Shown here: one piece after another, positions 51,419 through 64,000 of the stretch | Numbering within the stretch: position 1 is the stretch's first letter | Layout of the letters: the number at the start of each line of letters is the position of its first letter | From: Pirellulaceae bacterium | GTDB lineage: Bacteria > Planctomycetota > Planctomycetia > Pirellulales > Pirellulaceae | Reading direction: 5' to 3' | NCBI GenBank assembly: GCA_034408855.1 | Contig: JAWXCK010000253.1 | Location: forward strand, 12,730-76,729 | DNA: 64,000 nucleotides | The notes under the pieces: generated by a model | Told to the model about the DNA's origin: nothing | Seen by the model: only the letters and a program-made list of their open reading frames with translations | Database searches by the model: none | Position numbers and translations under genes: made by a program

Positions 51419-51506
51419 TTGTGGTGGCAACGATGTCGAGCAATCTCATTGTGGGGATCGCTCCGTTGCTCAACACAATTGTTTGCCTTACGAGGAGTGA
51501 GAATCG

Positions 51507-51965
51507 ATGCGAATTTTTGAAGTAGTACTAAGGCCCAGTGATACGGAAGCCGTTAAAATGCCATCCAATGTCGAGCTCTTGCGGGCAAGCTTTGACAAGG
51601 ACAAAGTGAGATTGACTTTTGAAAGTCCTCGCCAAGTAGAGCTAGAGGAATTTCGGTTCTTCGTCTTAAAACCTCATGAGCCAAGAGTCGACGGCGTGTT
51701 GAAGCGTGTCGCCGTTGGTGAATGCGAAGAACATGCTATCGTCGTCTACAGGGACGAGAGCCCTCTCGCAAAGTGTAAAAAATGTACTCGAGTACCATTG
51801 TCGGAAGGCGAATATTGCTGCAAAGGATGCGAGACATCGGGTGAGCATGATCTCGATTGCAATGGTCTTTACGACAAGGCTCGCGAGAGAATAAACGAGG
51901 AAGATGAAGCCGTTAATATGCTAATGAAACAAAACGGACAGAGACTAAAAGCTCCTACGTCCTAG
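51507..51965 (+). CDS. hypothetical Cys-rich protein
   Basis: 152 aa. AGGAG-like RBS 9 nt upstream. C-terminal CKKCTRVPLSEGEYCCKGCETSGEHDLDC is a possible zinc ribbon. Confidence 0.5.
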   Translation: MRIFEVVLRPSDTEAVKMPSNVELLRASFDKDKVRLTFESPRQVELEEFRFFVLKPHEPRVDGVLKRVAVGECEEHAIVVYRDESPLAKCKKCTRVPLSEGEYCCKGCETSGEHDLDCNGLYDKARERINEEDEAVNMLMKQNGQRLKAPTS

Positions 51966-52142
51966 GAATCTTCCGAGACTAGAACCCTCGTTGAACTGCA
52001 TCCCAGTCGGAAAATTGGAACCCGTGTGATTCGCAGAGTCGAAAGGCTGCGGATCGCTGGGATATTCCTTCAGTTGCCGCGAGCTCGATTACCGTATCGT
52101 AGAAGCCGGAAAGTTGAGCGTAGAATTCGACTGGTTCTTGAG

Positions 52143-53153
52143 CTACTCAATCATCCCCTCGTCAGACTCAGAATTGTCATCACTACTGAATACCTCCAAC
52201 GCTTTTTTATGGACTTCGATCCATCTTTGATCGTTTCGAGAAAGCTTTGGAAGAGGTACTGAGATCACCTTGCCGTCCGATTTTTGAATCGAAACATCGT
52301 TGTTGCTCGACTTCAGGTAACTCGCGTCAACACTGAACTTTCCATCTGCTGAGTTCCACGACCTTGGGCGTAGGTTGGGGGCGGACAAATTCAAGTCGCC
52401 TGGAGGAATCAAAGGCAGCAACTGCTTCTTATAGTCATTGTCGTCGAACTTGTAGTAGTCCAAGACATACGCCGTTGAACTTGCTCCGATGGCGGTTTCA
52501 TACGTGTAGGTTCCAGAAGCGTGAAGCAATCCATATATTTGAATCTTCTTTCCGTCGGCTATTCCTTTCGTAGGGTAACCTCGAACGACAAAACGTCCGT
52601 ACTTGATATTGTCGTGAAGGTAGCCATGAAATTCATCGTCGCCGGTTATTTGCGACACTTTGATAAGTGTTTGTCGGTAAATCCAATCGGGGATGACATC
52701 GGGATGGATGTTGCGGTGGCTATCAACCCAGCCTATTCTCCGAGTCTTTTCCGATTCGATCACGTCTAATAGTTCGGTCCACAATGCCATCTTCTCAAGC
52801 TTAGTTTTTGCGCTCTTGAACGCGACGAAAACCCCCTTGTTCGACTTGAGCTTACGAAACTTCTTTTTCTTTTCTTCACTCAAACTACTTTCCGCGAGTA
52901 CGTCGAAGTCGCCATCGATCGTACTGTCGATAACAAAGTGGTTGTTCGCAAGAAGTAAAAGCTTTTGGTAATCAACCTTCCTTTTGCTTGCGGCATTTTG
53001 AATCTCCAAATTCACGGATTCAGCATCCAAATACCCCTGTTTGACGTACTTCTTAAGTACTGCGTCAGGAATTGGGTCTCCTGCCATCGAGGAAACGGAA
53101 ATTGCAGCCAACAAAATGCACGACCCCGAAAACCATGCGAAGGAATTATTCAT
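52143..53153 (-). CDS. secreted hypothetical protein with C-terminal SHD1-like domain
   Basis: Signal peptide MNNSFAWFSGSCILLAAISVSSMA. The C-terminus RSWNSADGKFSVDASYLKSSNNDVSIQKSDGKVISVPLPKLSRNDQRWI matches the SHD1 pattern. The gene is AT-rich. The ORF is open to 53213. Confidence 0.6.
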   Translation of the reverse strand: MNNSFAWFSGSCILLAAISVSSMAGDPIPDAVLKKYVKQGYLDAESVNLEIQNAASKRKVDYQKLLLLANNHFVIDSTIDGDFDVLAESSLSEEKKKKFRKLKSNKGVFVAFKSAKTKLEKMALWTELLDVIESEKTRRIGWVDSHRNIHPDVIPDWIYRQTLIKVSQITGDDEFHGYLHDNIKYGRFVVRGYPTKGIADGKKIQIYGLLHASGTYTYETAIGASSTAYVLDYYKFDDNDYKKQLLPLIPPGDLNLSAPNLRPRSWNSADGKFSVDASYLKSSNNDVSIQKSDGKVISVPLPKLSRNDQRWIEVHKKALEVFSSDDNSESDEGMIE

Positions 53154-53497
53154 CAAGACGCCCTTTATTTTGCCTGGGATGGAAAAAAATCTTGCAAAAA
53201 CAATCGCAACCACTATCGCACATCCACAATGGAATGCAATAATGACCGCAAGACATTAGAGCATCGCGAAGTTTAGCCAGGGAACTGGCTAAGCCGATGA
53301 ATGTGGATGCTCTAGGAAGCGGCAACATACTCACCAAATGATTGCGGCCCATTGCTCGGGAACGTCCTGCGACCCCCGGACAGTCTGCGTAGAGAGCGTT
53401 AAGCGCGTATAGGCGTTTCGACTGCTTCTCTTCTTTTGCGCCCTTTTTATGTCCCGACCGATCGCTTCTAAGCTTTCGTTTTCAAAAGGAGAATCCC

Positions 53498-53797
53498 ATG
53501 AGCAATTCATCGAATGCCCAGCCAAAATACATGCCAGAGGAGGAGGCCTATATGGCCGCTTTCCAACAATCGCCAACAAGGCAGACCATACGGAGGAAGC
53601 GAAACCTCGGTCTCAAGTCCATCTGGATGAGCGGGCAGTGGCTCACGACGGTTCAGAACGTCATCGAGTTCGAAGAGTCCTATGCTGCGAATAGATGCGG
53701 TCGGGCGAACACTCCGAAACAAGCAACTCGATCAACGAAGTCTCGCGAAAAGTCACAACAGCGCGACGACGCGTTTCTGTCAGAGAACGGCGTGTAG
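53498..53797 (+). CDS. hypothetical protein
   Basis: 99 aa ORF with an AAGGAG RBS about 7 nt upstream of the ATG. Basic C-terminus. Confidence 0.45.
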   Translation: MSNSSNAQPKYMPEEEAYMAAFQQSPTRQTIRRKRNLGLKSIWMSGQWLTTVQNVIEFEESYAANRCGRANTPKQATRSTKSREKSQQRDDAFLSENGV

Positions 53798-53904
53798 CTC
53801 TCAGTCTCAAAAACCAAGGTCTTTCACGGCATTGGACGCATTTGAACCCTGTTGAAGCTATTCGTATCAATGTCGTTCATTGGACTTACTTGAGGGAAAT
53901 TGAA

Positions 53905-54126
53905 ATGCAAAAACTTGAAAATCCCAAGGACATAGCGGAGCGACTCTACGGATGGAGGCCGTCGACTGGTACCGTCTGCCGATGGGCTATCGTTCCAGGC
54001 AAGAACGGCGAGGTAATGCGGCGGACAAAAGTAGGGAAGCGAGTCCTAGTCACTGAGCATGATTTTCGGGCTTACCACGAAGATGCCTACGCGACGCCAC
54101 CGAAAATCGAAATGCTGAAAGCCTAA
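53905..54126 (+). CDS. excisionase/MerR-like helix-turn-helix DNA-binding protein
   Basis: 73 aa. MQKLENPKDIAERLYGWRPSTGTVCRWAI...VLVTEHDFRAY resembles Xis/AlpA-type HTH proteins. GAGGGA RBS upstream. The longer ORF from 53695 is unlikely. Confidence 0.55.
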   Translation: MQKLENPKDIAERLYGWRPSTGTVCRWAIVPGKNGEVMRRTKVGKRVLVTEHDFRAYHEDAYATPPKIEMLKA

Positions 54127-54198
54127 CCATAAATGCATCAAGCCCGTAACGAGCGGGCTTGATGCGAGACTCTGACGGAAACAAGGAGGTCAGACAAA

Positions 54199-55143
54199 AT
54201 GGATCATACGAAATCGACGGATCGCGAGCAAGCAAAAGCGAACGGTCAAAAAGATGATGCGGCAAATAAAAGAGGCAAAGTCCGAGGCGAGCAACTCTCG
54301 TTATTGCGACTCTTGCGATTACCAGACGTTCTAAAGACCAAGCATGGGCAATCTGTATCTCCAGGGATCGTCAAAGCTGTCTTGCGTGCGATCGATGATT
54401 ACGACGGTGTCAAGGGATGTTGGGCGAGCGTCGAGACGTTATCAGACGACACCTGTTTTTCTGAATCTGTAGTTGGTCGCGCGATTGAAGTCCTGAAGTC
54501 ACTCGACTTGATAATCTCCACACCACGCTACCGAGACACCAACATTCACTCAATTAATTGGGGAGTTGTTTCCAGTAGTCGTTTTGCCCCACGGGCAAAA
54601 TCACTACCTGTTAACGAGAAAAGTCATTCTGCCCCTGGGGTAAGTGGTTTTGCCCCTGGGGTAAGTGGTTCTGCCCCTGGGGTAAAGTCGAGTTGCCCCA
54701 CGGGCAAAGGAAACGCAATTGAAACGCAATTGAAACGCAAAAGAAACGCAAAGCATGAGATAGATGAATCTCTTTTGTCTCTCATTCGATGGTGGAATTC
54801 CCTCAAGGAGCGAAAGCTAGTACTGGCAGGCGTAGAAACAGAACCATCCAAAGGAGTACTAGCCGGATGGAAGCGATTCAAGAAGTCTCCAGAGTTGCGC
54901 ACACTCTTAGCCGACCGTACCAAGATCGAAACGGCGCTCCAGCAATCCTACCTGCCGCAGAAGGGAGCTTGGTTCACATTGCCAAAGCTCTTGGGGGGTA
55001 CGGTTCCGGATGGCGAATACGCAGTTCGGAAACTGCTGGACGGCAGCTATGCAGATATCGCAGGCTCAAAGCCAAAGACGGCCAACGACGGACCCGGTGT
55101 TAACTACGACCCGAACAGGAGTATTTCCGATGACAAATTCTAA
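54199..55143 (+). CDS. replication-initiator-like winged-helix protein
   Basis: 314 aa with an AAGGAGG RBS. N-terminal wHTH-like segment VKAVLRAIDDYDGVKGCWASVETLSDDTCFSESVVGRAIEVLKSLDLI. The repeat-encoded linker is SAPGVSGFAPGVSGSAPGV. Confidence 0.5.
   Translation: MDHTKSTDREQAKANGQKDDAANKRGKVRGEQLSLLRLLRLPDVLKTKHGQSVSPGIVKAVLRAIDDYDGVKGCWASVETLSDDTCFSESVVGRAIEVLKSLDLIISTPRYRDTNIHSINWGVVSSSRFAPRAKSLPVNEKSHSAPGVSGFAPGVSGSAPGVKSSCPTGKGNAIETQLKRKRNAKHEIDESLLSLIRWWNSLKERKLVLAGVETEPSKGVLAGWKRFKKSPELRTLLADRTKIETALQQSYLPQKGAWFTLPKLLGGTVPDGEYAVRKLLDGSYADIAGSKPKTANDGPGVNYDPNRSISDDKF
54584..54753. promoter_or_regulatory. iteron-like repeat cluster inside the Rep-like gene (candidate origin or protein-binding array)
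   Basis: Two copies of the palindrome ttgccccacgggcaa (54584-54598 and 54693-54707) flank three 21-bp tandem repeats of (t/c)tgcccctggggtaagtggt. Four 11-bp tandem repeats of gaaacgcaa(tt/aa/ag) follow at 54710-54753. Confidence 0.55.
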
Positions 55144-55188: not shown

Positions 55189-55893
55189 CTACCAGTGCGA
55201 CCGGTTGAGTTCAGTAACGACGTGCTCGCAGATCGGGAATGTCGGACAGTGGTCGACGTCGGCGGGTCCAAGTCGCTTTCCAGCAATCGCGTTTTCGATT
55301 CCACGCTGATGAGAGAAATCGACTAACTCCCACATCAAAACAGTAGGGGCCTGTACGGTCTTGACCCATGTTTTTAGGAGCTCGATAAAATTATGACGCT
55401 CGATCGAAGCCCCGTTGCTAGCCAAAATAGAGAGTTCGGTAATCAATGCACGAACCATCAGCTCACGATGATTCGGGGATTGCGAGCCGACGTTCTCATA
55501 GCTTAAAAATCTGTCTAGCAAATGGGCAGCAAGTCCCATCAAACCCTCAAAATCAAGATTCTTCGGACAAGGCACAATCACTTTCCCATGGTGACCCATT
55601 CTCGCGACAGCCGATGAGCACGGGCCCACGAGTATGAGCGTAAGCTCATCTGCCTTTGATTGCCCTTCCAACTCTGCTGCCCATTGTTTCGCGTCGGGTT
55701 GGTTTATCTGATTAAATGATGATTTGACCTGACATGCCCTTGTCACGGTCATCCCGTACCATGCGATGTCGATTTTGTCAGACGCATGAGTGGGCTCCAG
55801 CGTAAGCCGGTCCCAATCCAAGCGACGCAGTGATTCGAGCAACGCGATTACGGTTTGAATGAGATAGCCACGGTTTCCGTCTTGCCCACTCAT
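55189..55893 (-). CDS. PD-(D/E)xK nuclease-like protein (Cap4/DUF4297-like N-terminal domain)
   Basis: 234 aa. GYLIQTVIALLESL ... LTLEP ... DKIDIAW ... CQVKSS fits the G(F/Y)xYQ ... E ... D ... QVK pattern of DUF4297-type dsDNA nucleases. Confidence 0.5.
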   Translation of the reverse strand: MSGQDGNRGYLIQTVIALLESLRRLDWDRLTLEPTHASDKIDIAWYGMTVTRACQVKSSFNQINQPDAKQWAAELEGQSKADELTLILVGPCSSAVARMGHHGKVIVPCPKNLDFEGLMGLAAHLLDRFLSYENVGSQSPNHRELMVRALITELSILASNGASIERHNFIELLKTWVKTVQAPTVLMWELVDFSHQRGIENAIAGKRLGPADVDHCPTFPICEHVVTELNRSHW

Positions 55894-56083: not shown

Positions 56084-56434
56084 TTAGGCTATAATCGTTC
56101 TGCGCGCATCGGTCAGTCTCGAACATGATCGACCGAACGCGTTTGGCATCGCGGCGATAGAGACGACCCCCATTCCTTTTTGGACCATGATTTCCAGATT
56201 ATCATCCACAAAGCGCTCCGGATCGACCACCAATCGACTTACCGGATAAGCAACGGTGCGAGCGAGTGTTTCTGGGATCTCGAAGAGCTCATCGGTGTAG
56301 GCGTCCGTCATGAGTCGAAGTTCGTCAGCTAAATCTTGATCATTCAAGACGAATTGTTCACTAACCTCTTCCGGAACCACTTTTGACGCATGCGGAATGT
56401 GAATAATCGTAAACGGGGAATGCAAGCCGGACAT
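56084..56434 (-). pseudogene. N-formylglutamate amidohydrolase family gene, 3'-truncated
   Basis: The 116 aa HIPHASKVVPEE...TDAYTDELF...VSRLVVDPERFVDDNLEIMVQKGMGVV match only the N-terminal part of this family. The tail is unrelated and the ORF stops early. Confidence 0.55.
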
Positions 56435-56791: not shown

Positions 56792-59269
56792 ATGGCCATC
56801 AAGAAATCCGATCTATACTCGTCCCTCTGGGCCTCGTGCGATGAACTTCGCGGCGGGATGGATGCCAGCCAGTACAAGGACTACGTCCTGTTCATGCTGT
56901 TCATCAAATACATCTCCGACAAGTACGCAGACTACGACGGATTCGAGCCGCCGGTCGTCATCCCGCCAGGAGCAAGCTTCATGGATATGATCGCCCTCAA
57001 GGGAAAGGATGGCATCGGCGACAAAATCAACACGCAAGTCATTCAAAAACTTGTCGATGCGAATGATCGCCTCTCCCGTCACGACTTCCCTGACTTCAAC
57101 GATCCGAACAAGCTCGGCGAGGGGCAGGCGATGGTGGAGCGCCTGACCAACCTCATTGGCATCTTCCAAAAGCCGGAACTGGATTTCTCCCAGAACCGCG
57201 CCGAACACGACGACATTCTCGGCGACGCCTACGAGTATCTGATGCGGCACTTCGCCACCGAGAGCGGCAAGAGCAAGGGGCAATTCTATACCCCGTCCGA
57301 GGTCAGCCGCGTCATGGCCAAGGTCATCGGCATTTCTCCAAAGAATACCGTTGCCTCGACGACCGCCCACGACCCCTTCTGTGGCTCCGGCTCTCTGCTG
57401 CTGAAGGTCGCTGCCGAGGCCGGAAAACACATCACGCTCGAAGGGCAGGAGAAGGACGTGACCACCGCAGGTCTCGCCCGCATGAACATGATCCTGCACG
57501 ACTTCCCCACGGCGAATATCATCTCCGGCAACACTCTAGCCGCCCCCAAGTTCAAGGACGGTGAACAGCTTCGCACTTACGACTACGTCGTCGCCAATCA
57601 ACCATTTTCCGACAAGACCTGGAGCACCGGCCTCATCCCGGAGAACGATCTCTACCAGCGTTTTCAGTGGGGGGTGCCGCCGAAGAAGCAAGGCGACTAC
57701 GCCTATCTCCTGCACATCATCCGCTCGATGAAGAGCACGGGCAAGGCCGCCTGCATTCTCCCGCATGGCGTGCTTTTTCGCGGCGGTGCTGAAGGCGTCA
57801 TCCGCCAGCAGCTTATCCGCTCCGGTTATCTCAAGGCCATCATCGGCCTGCCTGCCAATCTTTTTTACGGCACGGGCATCCCCGCCTGCATCCTAGTGCT
57901 CGACAAGGAAAACGCCAAAGCCCGCAAAGGCATCTTCATGATCGACGCCTCCAAGAGCTTTATCAAGGATGGCAACAAGAATCGTCTCCGCGAGCAGGAC
58001 ATTCACCGCATCGTGGACACCTTCAAAAAACTGTCCGAAGTCCCACGCTACGCGCGCATGGTGCCAGTCGAGGAAATCGCCGACCTGAAGAACGACTTCA
58101 ACCTCAACCTTCCGCGCTACATCGACAGCAGCGAGCCCGAGGATCTCCAAGACATCAACGGTCACCTGCGCGGCGGCATCCCGAAGCGTGACATCGACGG
58201 ACTGGAGCGCTACTGGCAAGTCATTCCAGCGGTGCGGGAGGAGTTGTTCAAGAAGTCCAAGCATGCGGGCTATTTCGATCTAACCACCTCCGATGTCAAG
58301 TTGGCGATCTTCGGTCATTCTGAGTTTACGGCGTTCAAGAGCGGCGTCGACAAGCTGTTTACAAAGTGGAAAAAAACCAACTCACCGCTATTAAAGAGCT
58401 TTGGCAAGGATGATCACCCCAAGGCACTCATCGAGACGCTGTCCGAAGATTTATTAGCCACCTTTGCCAAAGCGCCGCTTCTAGATTACTACGACATCTA
58501 CCAGCACCTCATGGACTACTGGGCGATGACCATGCAGGACGACTGCTACCTTATCGCCGCCTTCGGGTGGCAGGCTGGCGTACTGCCACGCGAAATCATC
58601 CAGGTGAAGAACAAAGAGAACAAACTCGTCTGGCCCGAGCCGCACGACTTCAAGCGCGGCAAGCGCCGATTTAAGTCCGACCTCATCCCCGCCACACTCG
58701 TAATCGACCGCTACTTCGCCGCCGAGTGCGATGCCGTCGCCGCCATCGAGGGCGAACTGGCCGCCATCGAGCAGCAGCTTGATGAAAAGCGCGAGGAGCA
58801 AAACGATGAGGGTGAATTGCTGCTCGCTGAAGTCATCGAAGGCGAAGGCGACAAGCAGAAGATCACCGCCAAGGCCGTGAAGGCCCGAATCAAGGACATC
58901 GGCAAAGACCCCGATTATGCCGAGGAACGCGAGGCGTTGCAGGGATACGCCGCTCTGCTCGACCAGCAAACGGACGCCAAGACCCGGCTTAAGACCGCGC
59001 AGGACGACCTGGAGGCCAAGCTCGACGCCCAATACCCCAAGCTCAGCGAGGACGAGATCCAGACCCTTGTGGTGGACGACAAATGGCTGGCCACCGTCGC
59101 CGTCGCCGTGCAGGGCGAACTCGACCGCGTCTCGCAGACCCTCACCGGCCGCATCCGCGAGTTCGCTCTGCGCTACGCCACCCCGCTGCCACAGCTCACC
59201 GACGAAGTCGCCACGCTCGCCAGCCGCGTTGACGAACACCTCAAAAGGATGGGAGCGGTATGGAAGTGA
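56792..59269 (+). CDS. hsdM: type I restriction-modification system methyltransferase subunit HsdM (long form)
   Basis: 825 aa. HsdM N-domain (SSLWASCDELRGGMDASQYKDYVLFMLFIKYISDK), AdoMet motif DPFCGSGSLLL and catalytic motif VANQPFS. A long acidic coiled-coil C-terminal extension is present. Confidence 0.9.
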   Translation: MAIKKSDLYSSLWASCDELRGGMDASQYKDYVLFMLFIKYISDKYADYDGFEPPVVIPPGASFMDMIALKGKDGIGDKINTQVIQKLVDANDRLSRHDFPDFNDPNKLGEGQAMVERLTNLIGIFQKPELDFSQNRAEHDDILGDAYEYLMRHFATESGKSKGQFYTPSEVSRVMAKVIGISPKNTVASTTAHDPFCGSGSLLLKVAAEAGKHITLEGQEKDVTTAGLARMNMILHDFPTANIISGNTLAAPKFKDGEQLRTYDYVVANQPFSDKTWSTGLIPENDLYQRFQWGVPPKKQGDYAYLLHIIRSMKSTGKAACILPHGVLFRGGAEGVIRQQLIRSGYLKAIIGLPANLFYGTGIPACILVLDKENAKARKGIFMIDASKSFIKDGNKNRLREQDIHRIVDTFKKLSEVPRYARMVPVEEIADLKNDFNLNLPRYIDSSEPEDLQDINGHLRGGIPKRDIDGLERYWQVIPAVREELFKKSKHAGYFDLTTSDVKLAIFGHSEFTAFKSGVDKLFTKWKKTNSPLLKSFGKDDHPKALIETLSEDLLATFAKAPLLDYYDIYQHLMDYWAMTMQDDCYLIAAFGWQAGVLPREIIQVKNKENKLVWPEPHDFKRGKRRFKSDLIPATLVIDRYFAAECDAVAAIEGELAAIEQQLDEKREEQNDEGELLLAEVIEGEGDKQKITAKAVKARIKDIGKDPDYAEEREALQGYAALLDQQTDAKTRLKTAQDDLEAKLDAQYPKLSEDEIQTLVVDDKWLATVAVAVQGELDRVSQTLTGRIREFALRYATPLPQLTDEVATLASRVDEHLKRMGAVWK

Positions 59270-60527
59270 AGCCCGGCTACAAGCAGACGGAGGTGGGCGT
59301 CATCCCGGAGGAGTGGGAGGTTTGCCGCCTGTCGAGCCTCGTCGTGTCTGGTCCAAAGAACGGTTACTCAGGGCGGAGTGGAAAAGATGCCCGAGGAACT
59401 CCGACGCTAGCTCTCACCGCAACAACATCGGGGCGAATGATTCTCGATGAGGAAACACTGAAGCATCTCGAAGAAACGCTCGAACAAAACTCGGACGTTT
59501 TTCTCAAGGCGGGTGATGTGCTCGTTCAACGGTCAAACACGCCCGACCTTGTTGGCACGACGGCGATTTTTGATGGCCCCAGCGGCGTGTTTGCGTACCC
59601 CGACTTAATGATGCGATTGCGCTTCAAGGCACAGGAGACCGCTCGCTGGTTTTGGCGCTATGCGAACAGTTCAAGCGGCAGGCGTTATTTCGTCAGCGTG
59701 GCCGCCGGTTCGACCGGAACTATGCCCAAGATAAGCGGAGACAAGCTCCGCAACATGCCGCTTCCGCTGCCAAAGCCTCCCGAACAACGCGCGATCGCGA
59801 CGGCGTTGAGCGATGTGGATGCGCTGCTGGGCGCACTGGACCGGCTCATCGCCAAGAAGCGCGACCTCAAACGGCCGCCATGCAGCAACTCCTCACCGGC
59901 CAAACCCGCCTCCCCGGCTTCCACGGCGCGTGGGAGGTGACAACACTGGGTGAAGTCGCGACGTTTCTTTCTGGGGGAACGCCTTCACGCAGTAATGATG
60001 AATATTGGAATGGAGAAATTCCCTGGATCAGCGCAATGAGCCTCCGGTGCTTTGACGTATGGCGCTCTGATAGTAACGTCACCGAAGAAGCTGTTGCTTC
60101 GGGTAGCAAAATTGCTCCGATAGATTCCACCCTGCTGCTTGTTCGTGGGAGCGCTTTACACAAAGAGATTCTCTGTGGATTGGTAACGAAACGAGTCTGT
60201 TTCAATCAGGATGTAAAAGCGATGATCCCTTACTCGAACGTGTTCCCTCGATTCTTGACTTGGTTAATACGGGGAAGGGCTGACGATTTTCTTAAATTGG
60301 TTTCTTCAGCCGGGAACACTGCGGGAGTTCTCGATACGAAGCTGTTGAAAGCATTCCAGTTTCTCCTGCCTGAACGGCTCGAACAAATCGCCATCGCCGC
60401 CGTGCTGACGGAGATGGACGCGGAGCTGGCGGTGCTGGAGCACCGGCAGGCCAAGACCCGCGCCCTCAAGCAAGGCATGATGCAGGAACTGTTAACCGGG
60501 AAAACCAGGCTGCCTGTTCAATTATGA
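59260..60527 (+). pseudogene. hsdS: type I R-M specificity subunit HsdS, interrupted by a -1 frameshift in the central conserved region
   Basis: TRD1 plus central region lie in frame 1 (ORF 59260-59940). ...AAMQQLLTGQTRLPGF, TRD2 and the C-terminal conserved region lie in another frame (ORF 59652-60527). The junction ctcaaac-ggccgccatgcag lacks one base relative to the expected LKQAAMQ. The start overlaps the hsdM stop. Confidence 0.8.
60405..60527 (+). repeat. hsdS 3' conserved-region segment, copy 1 (functional end of hsdS)
   Basis: Encodes LTEMDAELAVLEHRQAKTRALKQGMMQELLTGKTRLPVQL*. Confidence 0.85.
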
Positions 60528-61003
60528 AATCAAAACCCCCAGAAAGCGGACTTCTAGAGGCCAAAGGAAAAAACGGCCAAAGGATATTCTACCAGTATTC
60601 CTGTGATCAACAGATTGAAGATTATGATGAAAAGACAATGTGGTGTTTCCAAATAGCCAATGATGATGGAGTCTTTGATTTCCATCTGGTTGACGAAGAC
60701 AGCCTCATGCGTGTCGAAATGATGACACGCAACGACTGCGAACTTTTCAAGGCTCGAGGCATTGCCGAGGCCTTCATTAGGCTAAGCAGCCAAATCTTTA
60801 AGATTGACATCTGTTCTTCTTCCCGAGCAAGACCTCAACCTAGTACCTCGCGAATTGAATCTGTGGCTGAACAGCATTCCGACGGCGCTAGAAAAGTCTG
60901 GCAAGGGCTCGTCGACAGCAAAGAGTCCCACTACGACAATTGTACGCAACGTTTCGTCTATCCATATAAAAATCGCGAAGAAGTTGACGGAGATGGACGC
61001 TGA
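60524..61003 (+). CDS. hypothetical protein (ORF A), possibly GNAT-like
   Basis: 159 aa. The ATG overlaps the hsdS stop (ATGA). The segment FKARGIAEAFIRL...ARKVWQGLV is vaguely GNAT motif-A-like. The 3' end runs 20 nt into hsdS-end copy 2. Confidence 0.45.
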   Translation: MKSKPPESGLLEAKGKNGQRIFYQYSCDQQIEDYDEKTMWCFQIANDDGVFDFHLVDEDSLMRVEMMTRNDCELFKARGIAEAFIRLSSQIFKIDICSSSRARPQPSTSRIESVAEQHSDGARKVWQGLVDSKESHYDNCTQRFVYPYKNREEVDGDGR

Positions 61004-61109
61004 GCTGGCGGTGCTGGAGCAGCGGCTGGTCAAGACCCGCGCCCTTAAGCAAGGCATGAAGCAGGAACTCCTCACCGGCAAAACTCGGCTGGTGCAACGA
61101 AATACATAA
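60984..61109 (+). repeat. hsdS 3' conserved-region segment, copy 2 (remnant)
   Basis: Encodes LTEMDAELAVLEQRLVKTRALKQGMKQELLTGKTRLVQRNT*. By hand alignment 95 of 108 nt are identical to copy 1. It is not in frame with ORF A. Confidence 0.85.
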
Positions 61110-61111
61110 CC

Positions 61112-61744
61112 ATGCCCAAGCTGAATACCACAACTAGTCCGTTGTCTCCTACGATTGAATTGACGCAGTCATACATGCGTAAATGGGGGACGTTGGAAAA
61201 ATACAAGTTCCAGGAGGATTCGCTAAGTTTGCTGTTCCAGGAATTCTGCCCAAATAATTCCGACATCGTCCATGTGTTGCTGAAGGTGAGCGCTTTGAAC
61301 GACTTCTACACCACCAACATTTACGATACGCATTCCGTGGCGAAACATATCATCGCGAGTGATGTCGATAGTCGAATAGCTGACGGCGACTGTTCGTTGG
61401 TGAATCAAATGGCCTCTGTCGTCGTGGGCGGCAAAATCCGTAATTTTTACTCGTTCGCCTCAAAGTATTGCAACCATCACAACCCCGAAGCGTTTCCCAT
61501 CTACGACTCTTACGTCGAGAAGATGCTGCTGCATTTTAGGGACGCGCACAATTTCGCTCAATTCAGCAAGGCCGAGTTAAAGCAATACAGCCGGTTCGTG
61601 GCGATTATCCACTCTTTTAGGCAACACTACTCGCTTGAGCAATTTTCTCTTCGGCAGATTGCCATCTATCTCTGGCTGGCTGGAAAAGATTCATTTGGAA
61701 GATTCCTCCAGAAGCAAACGAAAGAAATAAAGGATCGACCTTGA
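61112..61744 (+). CDS. hypothetical protein (ORF B)
   Basis: 210 aa. The ATG lies 2 nt after the stop of hsdS-end copy 2. Probably helical (LLKVSALNDFYTTNIYDTHSVAKHI...SFASKYCNHHNPEAFPIYDSYV). Family not recognised. Confidence 0.5.
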   Translation: MPKLNTTTSPLSPTIELTQSYMRKWGTLEKYKFQEDSLSLLFQEFCPNNSDIVHVLLKVSALNDFYTTNIYDTHSVAKHIIASDVDSRIADGDCSLVNQMASVVVGGKIRNFYSFASKYCNHHNPEAFPIYDSYVEKMLLHFRDAHNFAQFSKAELKQYSRFVAIIHSFRQHYSLEQFSLRQIAIYLWLAGKDSFGRFLQKQTKEIKDRP

Positions 61745-61749
61745 ACACG

Positions 61750-61863
61750 CTGACAGATATCGTCGTGGAGCTGGCGGTGCTGGAGCAGAGGCAGACCAAG
61801 ACCAGCACGCTGAAGCAGCGCATGATGCGAGAACTTTTAGCCGGAAGGACGCGATTGGTATGA
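61750..61863 (+). repeat. hsdS 3' conserved-region segment, copy 3 (more diverged remnant)
   Basis: Encodes LTDIVVELAVLEQRQTKTSTLKQRMMRELLAGRTRLV*. By hand alignment about 83 of 108 nt are identical to copy 1. Its stop overlaps the next ATG (ATGA at 61860-61863). Confidence 0.8.
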
Positions 61864-62699
61864 CGGATAATAATAAGGTCGAACCTCCATCGATAGCGAC
61901 GTTCTACGTCGATGAAGCCGGAGATGGCATTCTCTTTGGGCCAATGGGACGCAACCGGTTGGATGATCCTGACGCACCAAAATTCTTCATGCTTGGCATG
62001 GTTCGTTGTACGGTCGACGCCGAAGCGGAGGCGGCGCTGAGTGCGCTTCGGGCGTCATTGCTCGCCAATCCATTGTATGCGACGATTCATACTATGCGAC
62101 CATCCGTCCAGAAAACCGCTCGTTCGTTTCATGCCAAGGATGATCACGCTGAAGTGCGCGCCAAGGTCTTTGAAGCGCTGCTGGGGCTAGACTTCAAGTT
62201 CTTTGCGGTGATCAAGGATATGCGTTCCGTGTTACGTTATGTTGAAGGGCGTAATCAAATGCACGCGAACTATCGATATCATCCAAACGAGCTTTATGAC
62301 CTTACGGTAAGGATGCTTTTCAAGAATCAACTTCACAAGCACGACCAATATGAAATTACGTTTGCTCGTCGCGGTGCGTCCGATCGCACTAAAGCCCTCG
62401 TTACACAACTCGATTTAGCGAGGCAGGCTTTCATAGCCCAGCATGGGAGAGCTTCGAATTCGTCTCTGGGCATTCATCCAGCGTATCCATGGCAACGCCC
62501 CTGTTTGCAAATAGCTGATTATTGCCTATGGGCATTGCAGAGATGCTACGAACGGCACGAGTGTCGCTTCTTGCAAGCCATTTGGAACAAAGTGTCGTTC
62601 ATTCACGATGTCGACGATCCGAGAAAAACCTACGGTTCGTTTCTAACGCGGAATTCGCCTCCGCCAGACCCAGAGCAAATAAAAAACCGGTGGATATAG
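61860..62699 (+). CDS. DUF3800-like protein
   Basis: 279 aa. N-terminal FYVDEAGDG and C-terminal CLQIADYCLWALQR fit the DUF3800 pattern (DExG ... QxAD). Confidence 0.55.
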   Translation: MTDNNKVEPPSIATFYVDEAGDGILFGPMGRNRLDDPDAPKFFMLGMVRCTVDAEAEAALSALRASLLANPLYATIHTMRPSVQKTARSFHAKDDHAEVRAKVFEALLGLDFKFFAVIKDMRSVLRYVEGRNQMHANYRYHPNELYDLTVRMLFKNQLHKHDQYEITFARRGASDRTKALVTQLDLARQAFIAQHGRASNSSLGIHPAYPWQRPCLQIADYCLWALQRCYERHECRFLQAIWNKVSFIHDVDDPRKTYGSFLTRNSPPPDPEQIKNRWI

Positions 62700-62817
62700 G
62701 TTTCACTGGTCGTTGACCCGAAACACACGGCATGAAGCCGAATTTTGTCCACCGGTTCGACTACAACTATACACACCATTATCGAAGAATTCAAATACCA
62801 TCAAGGAAAAAACGGGA

Positions 62818-62946
62818 ATGTCACCGAGAGCTGAAAAGTTGCTCAAAAGGCTCATTAAACGGGCACAATATCTAGCTTATTGCACACGACGAGAAGACCC
62901 ATCACCGAAAAACTCTAATGAACAATTGATCCATGGAGACTCCTAA
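62818..62946 (+). CDS. possible 42-aa micro-ORF directly abutting the GIY-YIG gene
   Basis: ATG 62818 is preceded by AAGGA about 12 nt upstream. The stop TAA at 62944-62946 is immediately followed by ATG 62947. The product MSPRAEKLLKRLIKRAQYLAYCTRREDPSPKNSNEQLIHGDS is basic and helical. Confidence 0.25.
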   Translation: MSPRAEKLLKRLIKRAQYLAYCTRREDPSPKNSNEQLIHGDS

Positions 62947-63753
62947 ATGCTCGGACTGGTTCCCTATTTGACCGCAAGCGGCGTCAAATTTGACCCCGGC
63001 AACACCAAAATCCACCTCGCTTGTTGGAATGGGATCGAGCACCCACTCGATGTTTTCTACGCTGGAGGATGGCAGGCATGGCAAGATGGTCAGACCAAAC
63101 GAAACTTTGAATGTTCAAATGTTTTAAGCTTGATTGATCTCGGGCGGAGCCACTGGCTGTTTGTCGGCGTTTATGAAGTTCTCAGATGTCAACCGAGCCC
63201 GAAGGGAAATGGACATTTTTTGTACACCACAAAACTGCTTGCAAATCAATCGGAACTCATCGGACGGGTGATTGTCCACCATCAGCGGACGCGGCAGTCG
63301 TATGTTTGGTTTAAACCCGCAATGGAACTGCCGATTGTCGAGATCCGTCGCGAAAAGATGACGATCGCTGATTTTCCTGGCTACAACGCCGTTGTGATCA
63401 ACCACAGTAGTTTGCAGATTATTACACGGCAAAAAATCGCCTCGTGGCACGCTGCCTTGGCCAACATCAAAGGTGTTTATCTTATTGTCGATACCACGAC
63501 CGGAAAGCCTTACGTCGGCAAGGCGTCAGGATCGGTCGGAGTCTGGCAGCGCTGGTGTGCCTATGCCGACAACGGTCACGGTGGCAATGTAGAGTTGAAG
63601 AACGTTTTAAAGGAGAAAGGTTCTGAACACATGCGTAACTTCCAGTATTCCATTTTGGAGATTGCGGATACGCACGCGTCGAACGAAGATATTTTGGAAC
63701 GTGAGTCGTACTGGATGAACGTATTGCGATCGAGGGAGTTTGGATTGAATTGA
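62947..63753 (+). CDS. GIY-YIG nuclease domain protein with unknown N-terminal domain
   Basis: 268 aa. The C-terminal KGVYLIVDTTTGKPYVGKASGSVGVWQRWCAY...GGNVEL...FQYSILEI...ERESYWMNVLRSREFGLN carries the GIY ... YVG ... R ... E ... N elements. Confidence 0.7.
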   Translation: MLGLVPYLTASGVKFDPGNTKIHLACWNGIEHPLDVFYAGGWQAWQDGQTKRNFECSNVLSLIDLGRSHWLFVGVYEVLRCQPSPKGNGHFLYTTKLLANQSELIGRVIVHHQRTRQSYVWFKPAMELPIVEIRREKMTIADFPGYNAVVINHSSLQIITRQKIASWHAALANIKGVYLIVDTTTGKPYVGKASGSVGVWQRWCAYADNGHGGNVELKNVLKEKGSEHMRNFQYSILEIADTHASNEDILERESYWMNVLRSREFGLN

Positions 63754-63821: not shown

Positions 63822-64000
63822 ATGCCTGAACAACCCCGCTCTGAGCGCAAAACACAGAACCGCGTGATTGCTCTGTTCACTGACAAATCGCGTCCAGATT
63901 GCCTCGGCTATCGGCACCTCGGCGATTGGAGCAAGCGCGAGATCAATCGTTGCGTCGAAGTAGAAATACTTCGAGCGAATTTAAAGCAGCGGGGCTATTC
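63822..64000 (+). CDS. hsdR: type I restriction enzyme R subunit HsdR, N-terminal fragment (continues beyond window)
   Basis: My own translation: [59 protein letters not shown]. This resembles the conserved HsdR N-terminus. It is co-directional with hsdMS. Confidence 0.6.

What the first reader, a model, noticed from the sequence alone, without database searches (positions are those of the whole stretch)
60524..63753. 3.2-kb block of five uncharacterised ORFs wedged between hsdS and hsdR: candidate R-M-embedded defence or accessory system
hsdM, hsdS, ORF A, ORF B, a DUF3800-like gene, a possible micro-ORF, a GIY-YIG nuclease gene and hsdR are all co-directional. Their junctions are overlapping or nearly abutting, with the largest gaps being 118 nt before the micro-ORF and 68 nt before hsdR. 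The whole unit looks like one transcription unit. Type I R-M operons are known hot spots for embedded immunity genes, for example anticodon nucleases and Abi-type genes. None of the inserted proteins has an assigned function. Two have nuclease-type folds (DUF3800, which is RNase H-like, and GIY-YIG). The block is visibly less GC-rich than hsdM/hsdS, indicating a separate origin.
Basis: partly seen in the sequence, partly recalled or inferred. Interest (0 to 1): 0.82.

Follow-up and report, generated by a model that had tools for sequence, protein, structure and literature searches.

The report
Stacked defence genes inside restriction operon
The block is not one five-gene system: four independent mobile genes, one a known anti-phage nuclease and one paired with an undescribed small antisense RNA, have piled up at a recombination hot spot between two genes of a restriction-modification operon.

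Summary
The ORFs exist and are co-directional between hsdS and hsdR of a type I R-M operon (Pirellulaceae MAG).

1. The GIY-YIG gene is UzuA, the known single-gene Uzume defence (PADLOC E 4.8e-63, full length).
2. The "micro-ORF" is not conserved. The DUF3800-UzuA gap instead holds a convergent ~80-nt structured antisense sRNA (62681-62760, minus strand) with its own promoter. The sRNA accompanies 80 of 83 DUF3800 loci, shows strong covariation and matches no Rfam family.
3. Two remnants of the hsdS 3' end (60966-61109 and 61747-63) separate ORF A, ORF B and DUF3800. Each of these genes starts at the stop codon of an hsdS 3' end.
4. In related loci ORF B or DUF3800 is the only insert and ORF A is the first gene after hsdS. 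The genes co-occur in 2 of about 170 loci.

The block is therefore a stack of independent cassettes: a GNAT-fold protein, an HI_0787_N protein, DUF3800 plus sRNA, and Uzume. Embedding of defence genes in R-M operons is a known theme. The remnant-delimited stacking and the sRNA are new. All functions are inferred, and hsdS carries a frameshift.

The parts
56792..59269 (+). hsdM (825 aa), type I methyltransferase; host operon
   Evidence: Pfam N6_Mtase 2.2e-96 and HsdM_N. TIGR00497 scores 259.6, above its cut-off of 242.75. PADLOC MTase_I matches full length.
59260..60527 (+). hsdS with two TRDs, split by a 1-nt deletion near 59873 in the central conserved region. TRD1 is 59.6% GC and TRD2 is 49.8% GC.
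   Evidence: Two ORFs in different frames, each with Methylase_S. Deletion seen against the L092/L002 central region.
60381..60527 (+). CR1: the functional 3' conserved (coiled-coil) region of hsdS. It is the reference copy of the direct repeat, and its stop codon overlaps the ORF A start (ATGA).
60524..61003 (+). ORF A (159 aa): a rare GNAT-fold protein family linked to type I R-M loci. Its last ~12 codons run into remnant CR2 in another frame.
   Evidence: 3 relatives among 5.8e9 proteins and 17 among 1.84e9 representatives. Conserved alignment A6. Model pLDDT 88. Foldseek hits to GNAT-type acetyl-CoA domains (ICL2 E 1.6e-3, prob 1.0; AcrVA5; GCN5). Sits directly after hsdS in L082, L083 and L092/L093, and after hsdR in L177.
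60966..61109 (+). CR2: remnant of an hsdS 3' end (IKIAKKLTEMDAELAVLEQRLVKTRALKQGMKQELLTGKTRL..). Its stop codon lies 2 nt before the ORF B start.
   Evidence: Direct repeat D1, 89%. tblastn to the CR peptide 83%, E 5e-17. Alignments.
61112..61744 (+). ORF B (210 aa): PF27257 (HI_0787_N) family, a widespread stand-alone gene of unknown function.
   Evidence: More than 2500 relatives, all carrying PF27257. Invariant motifs in A2. Model pLDDT 91.7, with only weak Ogg/HhH-GPD-like matches (TM 0.33-0.42). No PDB, PHROG or BFVD match. It is the sole insert between hsdS and hsdR in L002 and follows hsdS at the contig end in L005. Neighbours elsewhere are heterogeneous.
61747..61863 (+). CR3: an older, 5'-truncated remnant of an hsdS 3' end. 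Its stop codon overlaps the DUF3800 start (ATGA).
   Evidence: Direct repeat D1, 77%. tblastn to CR 67%, E 6e-11. Sequence.
61860..62699 (+). DUF3800 protein (279 aa), RNase H-like, with the DE (D18, E19) and QxxD (Q217, D220) motifs intact.
   Evidence: Pfam DUF3800 1.7e-6. PADLOC DUF3800_VII 1.5e-10. 597 relatives. Invariant columns in A9. Motif definition from PMC7736814.
62681..62760 (-). Structured antisense sRNA, convergent with DUF3800 and overlapping its stop codon by 19 nt. It has a closing stem P1, an invariant hairpin CGGC-UYCAU-GCCG, a variable hairpin P2 and the motif CCUAUAUC. P1 is followed by a U-run.
   Evidence: Covariance model R1 gives 79.5 bits, E 1.7e-20, the only hit in the window. 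80 of 83 DUF3800 loci are hit at the same place and strand. Covariation: 91% of cells paired against 78% in shuffles; 152 double-change cells against 50; 0 of 500 shuffles as high. MFE -30.2 kcal/mol, z -3.1. No Rfam match at E<=10.
62766..62794 (-). Sigma-70-like promoter of the sRNA (TTGAAT, 17 nt, TATAGT). The predicted start lies at about 62759.
   Evidence: A promoter scoring >=9/12 sits at the same offset in 38 of 66 loci, and three loci score 12/12.
62947..63753 (+). UzuA (268 aa): the Uzume single-gene defence protein, with an N-terminal domain plus a C-terminal GIY-YIG nuclease domain (residues 175-267).
   Evidence: PADLOC UzuA PDLC03973 4.8e-63, residues 42-268 against profile 43-276 of 278. 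I-TevI catalytic domain 1LN0, E 3.5e-5, with GVY..YVG..R..E aligned. PHROG 26160 full length. Stand-alone on 433 plasmids.
63822..64000 (+). 5' end of hsdR, which runs off the window.
   Evidence: The L001 extension gives 428 aa with HSDR_N 4.1e-34 and SWI2_SNF2 3.2e-38.

Best explanation
The 3.2-kb block is a stack of four independent, horizontally exchanged one-gene modules. They accumulated at the hsdS-hsdR junction of a type I R-M operon, which is a cargo hot spot in this R-M family of Planctomycetota/Verrucomicrobiota-type genomes.

Order of modules:
1. ORF A, a small GNAT-fold protein.
2. ORF B, an HI_0787_N family protein.
3. A DUF3800 RNase H-like nuclease with a convergent ~80-nt structured antisense sRNA.
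4. UzuA, the Uzume GIY-YIG nuclease.

Shown:
- Modules 1, 2 and 3 each begin at the stop codon of an hsdS 3' end (functional, remnant, remnant). Each was therefore once the first gene behind an intact hsdS.
- The same modules occur singly in that position in related loci.

Inferred:
- Stacking happened by recombination that used the highly conserved hsdS coiled-coil coding segment as portable homology, leaving a remnant each time. For example, a donor 'hsdS-CR-ORF A-CR' could cross over in hsdM/hsdS on the left and in the resident CR on the right.
- The cargo is read through from the R-M promoter and acts as layered anti-phage defence beside R-M.
- UzuA attacks nucleic acid through its GIY-YIG domain.
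- DUF3800 is a toxic nuclease held in check by its sRNA. The sRNA could act as an antisense regulator of the mRNA 3' end, as a bound inhibitor, or both, and would be released when infection disturbs the RNA.
- ORF A (acyl-CoA-dependent modifier) and ORF B remain candidates by embedding only.
For: Repeats and junctions:
- Three direct copies of the hsdS 3' end.
- Junctions read from the sequence: ATGA overlap for hsdS/ORF A, a 2-nt spacer for CR2/ORF B, ATGA overlap for CR3/DUF3800.
- The remnants keep hsdS-like GC content (54.9-57.1%) inside a 46-50% GC block.

Each module alone in the same slot:
- hsdS-ORF B-hsdR in L002; hsdS-ORF B to the contig end in L005.
- hsdS-DUF3800-hsdR in L096, L100, L105 and L117, plus at least 8 partial loci.
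- hsdS-ORF A-remnant in L083 and L092/L093.
- Remnant-UzuA-DUF3800 in L095, and DUF3800-remnant in L107.
- Other cargo in the same slot: PDC-S02 and DUF4062/HATPase_c_4 genes in L103.

Independence: no conserved partner for ORF B, for DUF3800 or for UzuA.

Portable homology: CR DNA is 78-93% identical between most loci (one outlier, L105, is 60-70%), although their HsdM proteins are only 57-64% identical.

UzuA assignment.

sRNA.

Independent assembly with the same gene order.

Embedding as a defence signature is established in the literature: PrrC and TgvAB (PMC12707154, PMC11411939) and Payne et al., 10.1101/2024.01.29.577857.
Against: - No experiment or transcript data exists for any part.
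- hsdS carries a frameshift, so the host R-M may be impaired, or the frameshift may be an assembly error that could not be checked.
- The ORF B/CR3 junction has no homology on the ORF B side, and CR3 is truncated at a different point than CR2. At least one stacking step was therefore illegitimate rather than homologous.
- Remnants are no more similar to the resident CR than to CRs of other loci, so recurrent local exchange is not demonstrated.
- ORF A and ORF B have no defence-family hit (PADLOC v2.0.0).
- The ORF A GNAT assignment rests on a fold match with TM of only 0.42-0.46 and no Pfam hit.
- The sRNA family also occurs without DUF3800 in 24 of 26 distinct IMG/VR loci (31 of 33 covariance-model hits), so its role need not be tied to DUF3800.
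Confidence: 0.72

Rival explanations
1. This is the first reader's reading: the five ORFs form one co-functional multi-gene defence or accessory system inserted as a unit into the R-M operon.
For: The genes are co-directional and tightly packed between hsdS and hsdR. UzuA and DUF3800 are also adjacent in one other locus, L095.
Against: - hsdS remnants separate the genes.
- Each gene is found alone in the same slot elsewhere.
- Co-occurrence is seen in 2 of about 170 loci, and in L095 the order is reversed.
- The micro-ORF is not conserved.
- UzuA is described as a single-gene system (10.1101/2024.10.26.620412).
Confidence: 0.05
2. The cargo is selfish rather than protective. The GIY-YIG gene would be a free-standing homing endonuclease that invades the conserved hsdS-hsdR junction, and DUF3800 plus sRNA would be an addiction (toxin-antitoxin) module. 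The other genes would be hitch-hikers, and the hot spot would reflect homing and repair rather than selection for defence.
For: - The GIY-YIG domain is closest to I-TevI and to homing-endonuclease models (TIGR01453 6.7e-7, PADLOC HEase, PHROG 314).
- Relatives are frequent on plasmids and phage-plasmids.
- The insertion site lies between conserved genes.
- A convergent antisense RNA over a nuclease gene resembles an addiction module.
Against: - The full-length match is to UzuA (E 4.8e-63), far better than to homing-endonuclease models (E about 1e-5 to 1e-7, nuclease domain only).
- UzuA relatives sit in unrelated contexts with no common target site.
- ORF B and DUF3800 occupy the slot without any GIY-YIG gene in most loci.
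Confidence: 0.13
3. The hsdS 3' copies are parts of a specificity-switching (phase-variable) hsdS array, with ORF A and ORF B sitting where alternative target-recognition domains (TRDs) used to be.
For: CR-to-CR spacing across ORF A (579 nt in the window, 594 in L083, 600 in L092) equals the spacing across TRD2 (600 nt). The repeats are long and conserved.
Against: - The repeats are direct, not inverted, and no recombinase lies nearby.
- ORF A is read in a different frame from the CR and has a GNAT-like fold, not a TRD fold.
- ORF A and ORF B have no Methylase_S signal.
- The remnants carry a stop codon or frameshifts in L083 and L092.
Confidence: 0.03
4. This is an alternative mechanism for module 3. 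The sRNA would not be an antidote but a cofactor, guide or substrate of DUF3800, as crRNA-like or msDNA-like nucleic acids are for other effectors. Alternatively, it could be an independent mobile RNA element that merely lands next to DUF3800.
For: - An invariant core and a junction typical of protein- or ligand-binding RNAs.
- 24 of 26 distinct viral-contig copies (31 of 33 model hits) lack DUF3800.
- Weinberg et al. found 11 unrelated RNA structures next to DUF3800 genes, in either orientation (PMC5737381).
Against: - In this subfamily the position, strand and overlap with the stop codon are fixed in 80 of 83 loci. That pattern is what antisense control predicts.
- No experiment discriminates between the models.
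Confidence: 0.3

Closest known systems
Defence genes embedded in type I R-M operons: PrrC in EcoprrI, TgvAB in Vibrio cholerae VPI-2, and the 'guilt-by-embedding' candidates of Payne et al. 2024
   Same: Cargo genes lie between the hsd genes on the same strand. The cargo includes a validated defence family (UzuA). The same slot holds different cargo in related loci.
   Different: Four unrelated modules are stacked here. They are delimited by remnants of the hsdS 3' end, a feature not mentioned in the main text of Payne et al. (term search). No PrrC- or GmrSD-like protein is present.
Uzume (UzuA), a single-gene GIY-YIG defence system (Millman et al. 2022, as cited)
   Same: Full-length match to the UzuA profile and a conserved GIY-YIG core.
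   Different: This copy is embedded in an R-M operon in a planctomycete. Its mechanism is listed as unknown in the literature read here.
DUF3800-associated RNA motifs DUF3800-I to -XI (Weinberg et al. 2017, PMC5737381)
   Same: A conserved structured RNA sits next to a DUF3800 gene. Terminator-like 3' ends are present and the function is unknown.
   Different: The RNA matches none of the Rfam 15 families at E<=10. Its orientation is fixed as convergent antisense over the stop codon, with its own sigma-70 promoter. It also occurs alone in viral contigs.
Retron type VII (RT + msr/msd + DUF3800 effector; Mestre et al. 2020, PMC7736814)
   Same: A DUF3800 protein with the DE motif matches the PADLOC DUF3800_VII model. 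A structured nucleic acid is encoded next to the effector.
   Different: There is no reverse transcriptase. The partner is a plain sRNA, and the QxxD motif is intact here (Q217, D220), whereas the retron clade lacks the Q.
Toxin-antitoxin systems with RNA antitoxins: type I with 3'-overlapping antisense RNA, and type III such as ToxIN, whose antitoxin is mimicked by phages (from my own knowledge)
   Same: A convergent antisense RNA overlaps the 3' end of a putative nuclease gene. Stand-alone RNA copies occur in viral contigs.
   Different: The protein is a 279-aa RNase H-like enzyme, not a small membrane peptide. The RNA is single-copy, not a processed tandem array. Toxicity and neutralisation are untested.

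Membership tests
Uzume (UzuA) | Full-length match to the UzuA profile | tested here: met
   PADLOC PDLC03973 E 4.8e-63, residues 42-268 against profile 43-276 of 278. The L095 relative gives 6.9e-65.
Uzume (UzuA) | GIY-YIG nuclease domain with its catalytic residues | tested here: met
   Aligns to the I-TevI catalytic domain 1LN0 (E 3.5e-5), with GVY, YVG, the Arg (QRW) and the Glu (ERE) aligned. Pfam GIY-YIG is below its cut-off (19.1 against 22.6 bits).
Uzume (UzuA) | Acts alone as a single gene, with no conserved partner | tested here: met
   Stand-alone in plasmid contexts. Adjacent to DUF3800 in only 1 of 80 DUF3800 loci.
Uzume (UzuA) | Protects against phage | not testable with these tools
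   Requires phage challenge of the cloned gene.
Type I R-M operon (host of the block) | HsdM, HsdS with two TRDs and two conserved regions, and HsdR | tested here: inconclusive
   HsdM and the HsdR N-terminus are clear. HsdS has both TRDs but is split by a 1-nt deletion. The frameshift could not be checked in a second assembly.
Retron type VII | Reverse transcriptase gene next to the DUF3800 effector | tested here: not met
   No RT domain in any ORF of the block. No RT domain was found among the genes flanking DUF3800 relatives in the annotated loci.
Retron type VII | DUF3800 effector protein | tested here: met
   PADLOC DUF3800_VII 1.5e-10 and Pfam DUF3800 1.7e-6.
DUF3800-I to -XI RNA motifs (Rfam) | Match to one of the curated covariance models | tested here: not met
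   No hit at E<=10 on window 62640-62810. None at the gathering threshold at this site in 14 loci; the only hit was DUF3800-IX elsewhere in L154.
DUF3800-I to -XI RNA motifs (Rfam) | Conserved structured RNA associated with DUF3800 genes | tested here: met
   80 of 83 loci are hit by model R1. Covariation.
Type I toxin-antitoxin | Antisense RNA overlapping the toxin mRNA | tested here: met
   The sRNA overlaps the last 19 nt of the DUF3800 ORF and its 3' UTR on the opposite strand, with its own promoter.
Type I toxin-antitoxin | Small hydrophobic toxin peptide, with toxicity neutralised by the RNA | tested here: not met
   The protein is 279 aa and RNase H-like. Toxicity cannot be tested here.
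Type III toxin-antitoxin (ToxIN-like) | Tandem array of RNA repeats upstream of, and processed by, the toxin | tested here: not met
   The RNA is single-copy, downstream and convergent. No tandem array was found in the region.
GNAT acetyltransferases (ORF A) | GNAT fold with the acyl-CoA-binding motif A (Q/R-x-x-G-x-G/A) | tested here: inconclusive
   Foldseek hits to the ICL2 acetyl-CoA domain (E 1.6e-3, prob 1.0, TM 0.42-0.46), AcrVA5 and GCN5. K76-x-x-G79-x-A81 is present, with G79 nearly invariant. No Pfam GNAT hit.
HhH-GPD / Ogg DNA glycosylases (ORF B) | Fold match and catalytic HhH-GPD motif | tested here: inconclusive
   The best meaningful matches are 3KNT and 3N0U (prob 0.63, TM 0.33-0.42, E > 0.1). 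DUF6308 scores 18 bits, below its cut-off.
PrrC/RloC anticodon nucleases (R-M guardians) | ABC-ATPase plus anticodon nuclease protein between hsd genes | tested here: not met
   No PADLOC, Pfam or NCBIfam hit of that kind for any ORF.
Phase-variable hsdS shufflon | Inverted hsdS repeats, spare TRDs and a site-specific recombinase | tested here: not met
   The repeats are direct. The remnants hold no TRD. There is no recombinase in the operon.

The most novel reading that the evidence does not exclude
Two linked claims make up the most novel reading that the evidence does not exclude.

1. DUF3800 nucleases would be generally restrained by a dedicated structured nucleic acid: this sRNA here, other RNA motifs elsewhere, and msDNA in retron type VII. 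They would then form a protein-RNA toxin-antitoxin-like abortive-infection module. The stand-alone copies of the same sRNA in viral contigs would be phage-encoded antidote mimics, analogous to pseudo-ToxI.

2. The conserved hsdS coiled-coil coding segment would work as a recombinase-free 'attachment site' that lets defence cassettes hop and stack between type I R-M operons.
Probability: 0.25. Interest if true: 0.85.

Novelty: new variant of a known kind. Interest (0 to 1): 0.58.

Why it matters
Embedding of defence genes in R-M operons is already used to find new immune systems. This locus adds two things.

First, the hsdS 3' remnants give a physical record of how cargo is stacked. They offer a simple sequence signature (extra copies of the hsdS 3' end) that could be used to mine cassettes and to reconstruct their order of arrival.

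Second, the locus offers a concrete handle on an open puzzle. DUF3800 proteins appear as retron type VII effectors and as CRISPR-associated genes. Since 2017 they have been known to sit next to many unrelated structured RNAs whose function is unknown. Here one subfamily has an obligate RNA partner with a fixed geometry, a recognisable promoter and clear covariation. Apparent solo copies occur in viral contigs. This turns 'what do DUF3800 RNAs do?' into a short list of experiments.

The two remaining genes are a rare R-M-linked GNAT-fold family and the large HI_0787_N family. Both are reasonable candidates for new single-gene defences.

Tried and rejected
1. ORF A as a detached TRD. It fills a TRD-sized slot, but the model is GNAT-like and gives no HsdS match.
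2. Local homogenisation of remnants with the resident hsdS. The identity matrix shows the remnants are no closer to their own hsdS than to CRs of other loci.
3. A conserved neighbour for ORF B. Pfam profiling of 70 upstream and 73 downstream neighbours found none.
4. ORF B function. No hit from the PDB sequence profile, only weak hits from the PDB fold search, none from the viral fold search, none from PHROGs, and no literature on HI_0787, DUF6308 or PF27257.
5. The micro-ORF as a gene. No family hit and no conservation in L095.
6. The sRNA on the plus strand (first fold). Replaced by the minus strand because of G-U pairs (for example 25 G-U at one P1 pair and 34 U-G at another), the fixed-offset promoter and the U-run after P1.
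7. Rfam identity of the sRNA. None found.
8. The frameshift in a second assembly. The exact product is not on record.
9. A convergent DUF3800 gene next to the viral sRNA copies. Found in only 2 of 36 loci, with no other conserved neighbour.
10. The retron reading. No RT is present.

Full report
**Source and layout.** The window comes from a Pirellulaceae MAG (locus tags SGI77_23560/23570). All features lie on the + strand:
- hsdM 56792-59269
- hsdS 59260-60527
- ORF A 60524-61003
- ORF B 61112-61744
- DUF3800 61860-62699
- a GIY-YIG gene 62947-63753
- hsdR from 63822

A Logan contig from run SRR6448213 (L001) carries the same genes in the same order from ORF A into hsdR. It extends hsdR to 428 aa with HSDR_N and SWI2_SNF2 domains. 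The core observation is therefore real.

- hsdS is split between two frames by a 1-nt deletion in its central conserved region (AAACAGGCC in L092/L002 against AAACGGCC here).
- The gaps ORF A-ORF B (108 nt), ORF B-DUF3800 (115 nt) and DUF3800-GIY-YIG (247 nt) are not small.
- The window averages 51.7% GC. The R-M core (hsdM 58.2%, GC3 78%; hsdR 57.6%) is the compositional outlier, not the 46-50% GC insert.

**What the genes are.**
- *GIY-YIG protein.* It matches the PADLOC UzuA profile over its whole length (E 4.8e-63). Its C-terminal domain aligns to the I-TevI catalytic domain with the GIY, YIG, Arg and Glu positions conserved. Uzume is a published single-gene defence system whose mechanism is listed as unknown. 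Relatives are stand-alone genes on 433 plasmids and a few phage-plasmids.
- *DUF3800 protein.* It matches Pfam DUF3800 and the PADLOC model for the retron type VII effector. It keeps the DE and QxxD motifs.
- *ORF B.* It belongs to PF27257 (HI_0787_N), with more than 2500 relatives and strongly conserved motifs. A confident model (pLDDT 91.7) gives only weak Ogg/HhH-GPD-like matches. Nothing was found in the PDB by sequence, in PHROGs, in BFVD or in the literature.
- *ORF A.* It is a genuine but very rare family (3 relatives among 5.8e9 proteins, 17 among 1.84e9 representatives). Its model (pLDDT 88) resembles GNAT-type acetyl-CoA-binding domains (ICL2, AcrVA5, GCN5) and it carries a KxxGxA motif.
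- *Micro-ORF (62818-62946).* It has no family hit and is not conserved upstream of the only other neighbouring UzuA.

The last ~107-125 nt of hsdS encode the C-terminal coiled-coil conserved region (CR). This segment is present three times in direct orientation: the functional copy (ending at 60527), a copy after ORF A (60966-61109, 82-89% identical) and a 5'-truncated copy after ORF B (61747-61863, 74-77%). Each copy ends with a stop codon that overlaps or abuts the start of the next gene: ATGA for ORF A, a 2-nt spacer for ORF B, and ATGA for DUF3800. The remnants keep hsdS-like GC content. ORF A, ORF B and DUF3800 were therefore each once the first gene behind an intact hsdS. The present order records successive additions.

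**Comparative evidence.** Three sets of loci were examined: 80 genome loci with ORF B relatives, 80 metagenome loci with DUF3800 relatives, and the few ORF A loci.

In loci with the same R-M family (HsdM 57-64% identical), the hsdS-hsdR slot holds:
- ORF B alone (L002; L005, where the contig ends in ORF B).
- DUF3800 alone (L096, L100, L105, L117, and at least eight partial contigs).
- ORF A followed by an hsdS remnant (L083, L092/L093). The remnant carries a stop codon in L083 and frameshifts in L092.
- A remnant followed by UzuA then DUF3800 (L095).
- DUF3800 followed by a remnant (L107).
- DUF3800 plus a PDC-S02 candidate and DUF4062/HATPase_c_4 genes (L103).

Outside this R-M family:
- ORF B relatives have heterogeneous neighbours.
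- DUF3800 relatives are solitary or embedded in another methylase/helicase cluster.
- More distant ORF A relatives follow hsdR (L177, probably L174) or sit in a mobile element (L175/L176).

None of the 80 ORF B loci has ORF A, DUF3800 or UzuA. Among the 80 DUF3800 loci, UzuA is adjacent once and an ORF B-like gene once. The block is therefore a stack of independent modules in a hot spot, not a conserved system.

CR DNA is 78-93% identical between most loci, although HsdM proteins are only about 60% identical. This makes the CR a plausible portable homology for recombination. However, the remnants are not closer to their own hsdS than to others, and the ORF B/CR3 junction lacks homology on one side. 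At least one step was therefore illegitimate.

**The DUF3800-UzuA gap holds an antisense sRNA.** A stretch spanning the DUF3800 stop codon and the next ~60 nt is much more conserved than the protein.

Evidence for a structured RNA on the minus strand:
- Across 63 sequences, a structure with a closing stem (P1), an invariant hairpin (CGGC-UYCAU-GCCG) and a variable hairpin (P2) is 91% paired, against 78.2 +/- 0.7% in shuffles.
- That structure has 152 double-change cells against 49.8 +/- 6.6. No shuffle or slid register comes close.
- Many G-U pairs exist only on the minus strand (25 at one P1 pair, 34 at another).
- A sigma-70-like promoter on the minus strand sits at a fixed offset in 38 of 66 loci, and three loci score 12/12. 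In the window it is TTGAAT-17-TATAGT at 62794-62766.
- P1 is followed by a U-run. The MFE fold reproduces the consensus (-30.2 kcal/mol, z -3.1).

Evidence for a specific association with DUF3800:
- Covariance model R1 finds one hit in the window (62681-62760, minus strand, 79.5 bits).
- It finds no significant hit in 1.04 Mb of control loci.
- It hits 80 of 83 DUF3800 loci, always at the gene's 3' end on the opposite strand.

No Rfam 15 family matches. Weinberg et al. (PMC5737381) described 11 different RNA motifs next to DUF3800 genes, of unknown function. Later papers still list DUF3800 as uncharacterised. This RNA is a further, well-defined member of that phenomenon.

A pattern scan of IMG/VR found 36 loci with the RNA core. 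Of these, 33 are full model hits with clear compensatory changes. Only 2 of the 36 have a DUF3800 gene, and no other neighbour is conserved. Several have good promoters.

**Most likely mechanism.**
- *Shown:* the architecture, the junctions, the independence of the modules, the family assignments of UzuA and DUF3800, and the RNA structure with its linkage to DUF3800.
- *Inferred (the steps I commit to):* the modules are co-transcribed with the R-M genes and act as additional, independent anti-phage layers.
  - UzuA acts through its GIY-YIG nuclease.
  - DUF3800 is a toxic RNase H-like nuclease. Its synthesis or activity is restrained by the convergent sRNA, either by antisense pairing with the mRNA 3' end or by direct binding, and it is released on infection.
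  - The solo viral copies could be antidote mimics.
  - ORF A (a likely acyl-CoA-dependent modifier) and ORF B are candidates by embedding only.
- *Rival readings:* a single multi-gene system (contradicted), selfish homing/addiction elements, a phase-variable hsdS array (contradicted), and an RNA cofactor or guide role.

**Comparison with known systems and novelty.** The general kind is known: defence genes embedded in type I R-M operons (PrrC, TgvAB, and the guilt-by-embedding survey). The locus contains one already-known system (Uzume).

New here:
- Stacking delimited by hsdS 3' remnants.
- An sRNA class not in Rfam with fixed antisense geometry.
- A rare R-M-linked GNAT-fold family.

Membership tests show it is not a retron (no RT), not a ToxIN-type or classical type I TA, not PrrC-like, and not an hsdS shufflon.

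**Caveats.**
- This is a MAG, with no expression or phenotype data.
- The hsdS frameshift may be real or an assembly error.
- The PADLOC copy dates from 2023, so newer PDC families were not tested.
- Fold-based assignments for ORF A and ORF B are weak.
- The viral status of the IMG/VR contigs was not verified.

Noticed in passing
window 59865-59880: hsdS is frameshifted by a 1-nt deletion in the central conserved region (AAACAGGCC to AAACGGCC, compared with L092 and L002). This yields a TRD1 half (226 aa) and a possible TRD2 half starting at an internal ATG. It may be real (split or inactive S subunit) or an assembly error.
   Followed up: partly
L180-L215 (IMG/VR contigs), e.g. L193:236-304, L203:7707-7776, L209:2954-3022: The same sRNA family (33 of 36 loci hit by model R1, with strongly covarying P1 and P2) occurs in viral contigs. 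Only 2 of the 36 have a DUF3800 gene, and there is no other conserved neighbour. These could be phage-borne decoys or an independent role for the RNA.
   Followed up: partly
window 59921-60380 versus 59260-59920: The two TRDs of hsdS differ sharply in composition (TRD2 49.8% GC, GC3 46%; TRD1 59.6% GC, GC3 68%). TRD2 is 76% identical to the L105 TRD2. This suggests TRD2 was swapped in separately.
   Followed up: no
hsdS 3' conserved region, window 60381-60527 and the equivalents in L002-L117: The CR DNA is 78-93% identical between most loci, although their HsdM proteins are only 57-64% identical. This is unusually high nucleotide conservation for a coding segment.
   Followed up: partly
window 55189-55893 (- strand): A 234-aa ORF just upstream of the R-M operon matches a PADLOC 'Effector, endonuclease' model at E 5.7e-18 over its first 96 residues. 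It may be another defence-related gene in the same island.
   Followed up: no
window 50177-55143: A weak tyrosine-integrase-like ORF (50177-51418, E 0.003), a DUF1580 protein (53695-54126) and an HTH_36 protein (54199-55143) precede the operon. The R-M locus may lie on an integrated mobile element.
   Followed up: no
window 56084-56434 (- strand): A 116-aa ORF covers only positions 4-84 of the 219-position N-formylglutamate amidohydrolase profile. This truncated gene abuts the hsdM upstream region and may be an insertion scar.
   Followed up: no
L103:1023-4210: In a related operon the hsdS-hsdR slot holds DUF3800 plus a PDC-S02 candidate (E 1.3e-144), a DUF4062/HATPase_c_4/HTH protein and a further HATPase_c_4/HTH protein. 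The hot spot carries diverse cargo.
   Followed up: partly
L154:1891-1974 (- strand): An Rfam DUF3800-IX RNA (42.3 bits, above the gathering threshold) lies about 3 kb upstream of a DUF3800 gene that also carries the new sRNA. Two different DUF3800-type RNAs therefore sit in one locus.
   Followed up: no
ORF B relatives L036-L081: Many Firmicutes relatives of ORF B are ~330 aa, with a ~130-aa N-terminal extension (PF24706 in P0102). They recur next to DUF6508 (8 of 70 upstream neighbours) and nucleotidyltransferase (7 of 73 downstream neighbours) genes. This may be a distinct sub-architecture.
   Followed up: no
L119-L172, about 15-45 nt upstream of the DUF3800 stop codon: In the distant DUF3800 group the last codons contain a conserved perfect hairpin (AGCCGCTnnnnnAGCGGCT). 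On the minus strand it follows the sRNA and may be its terminator.
   Followed up: no
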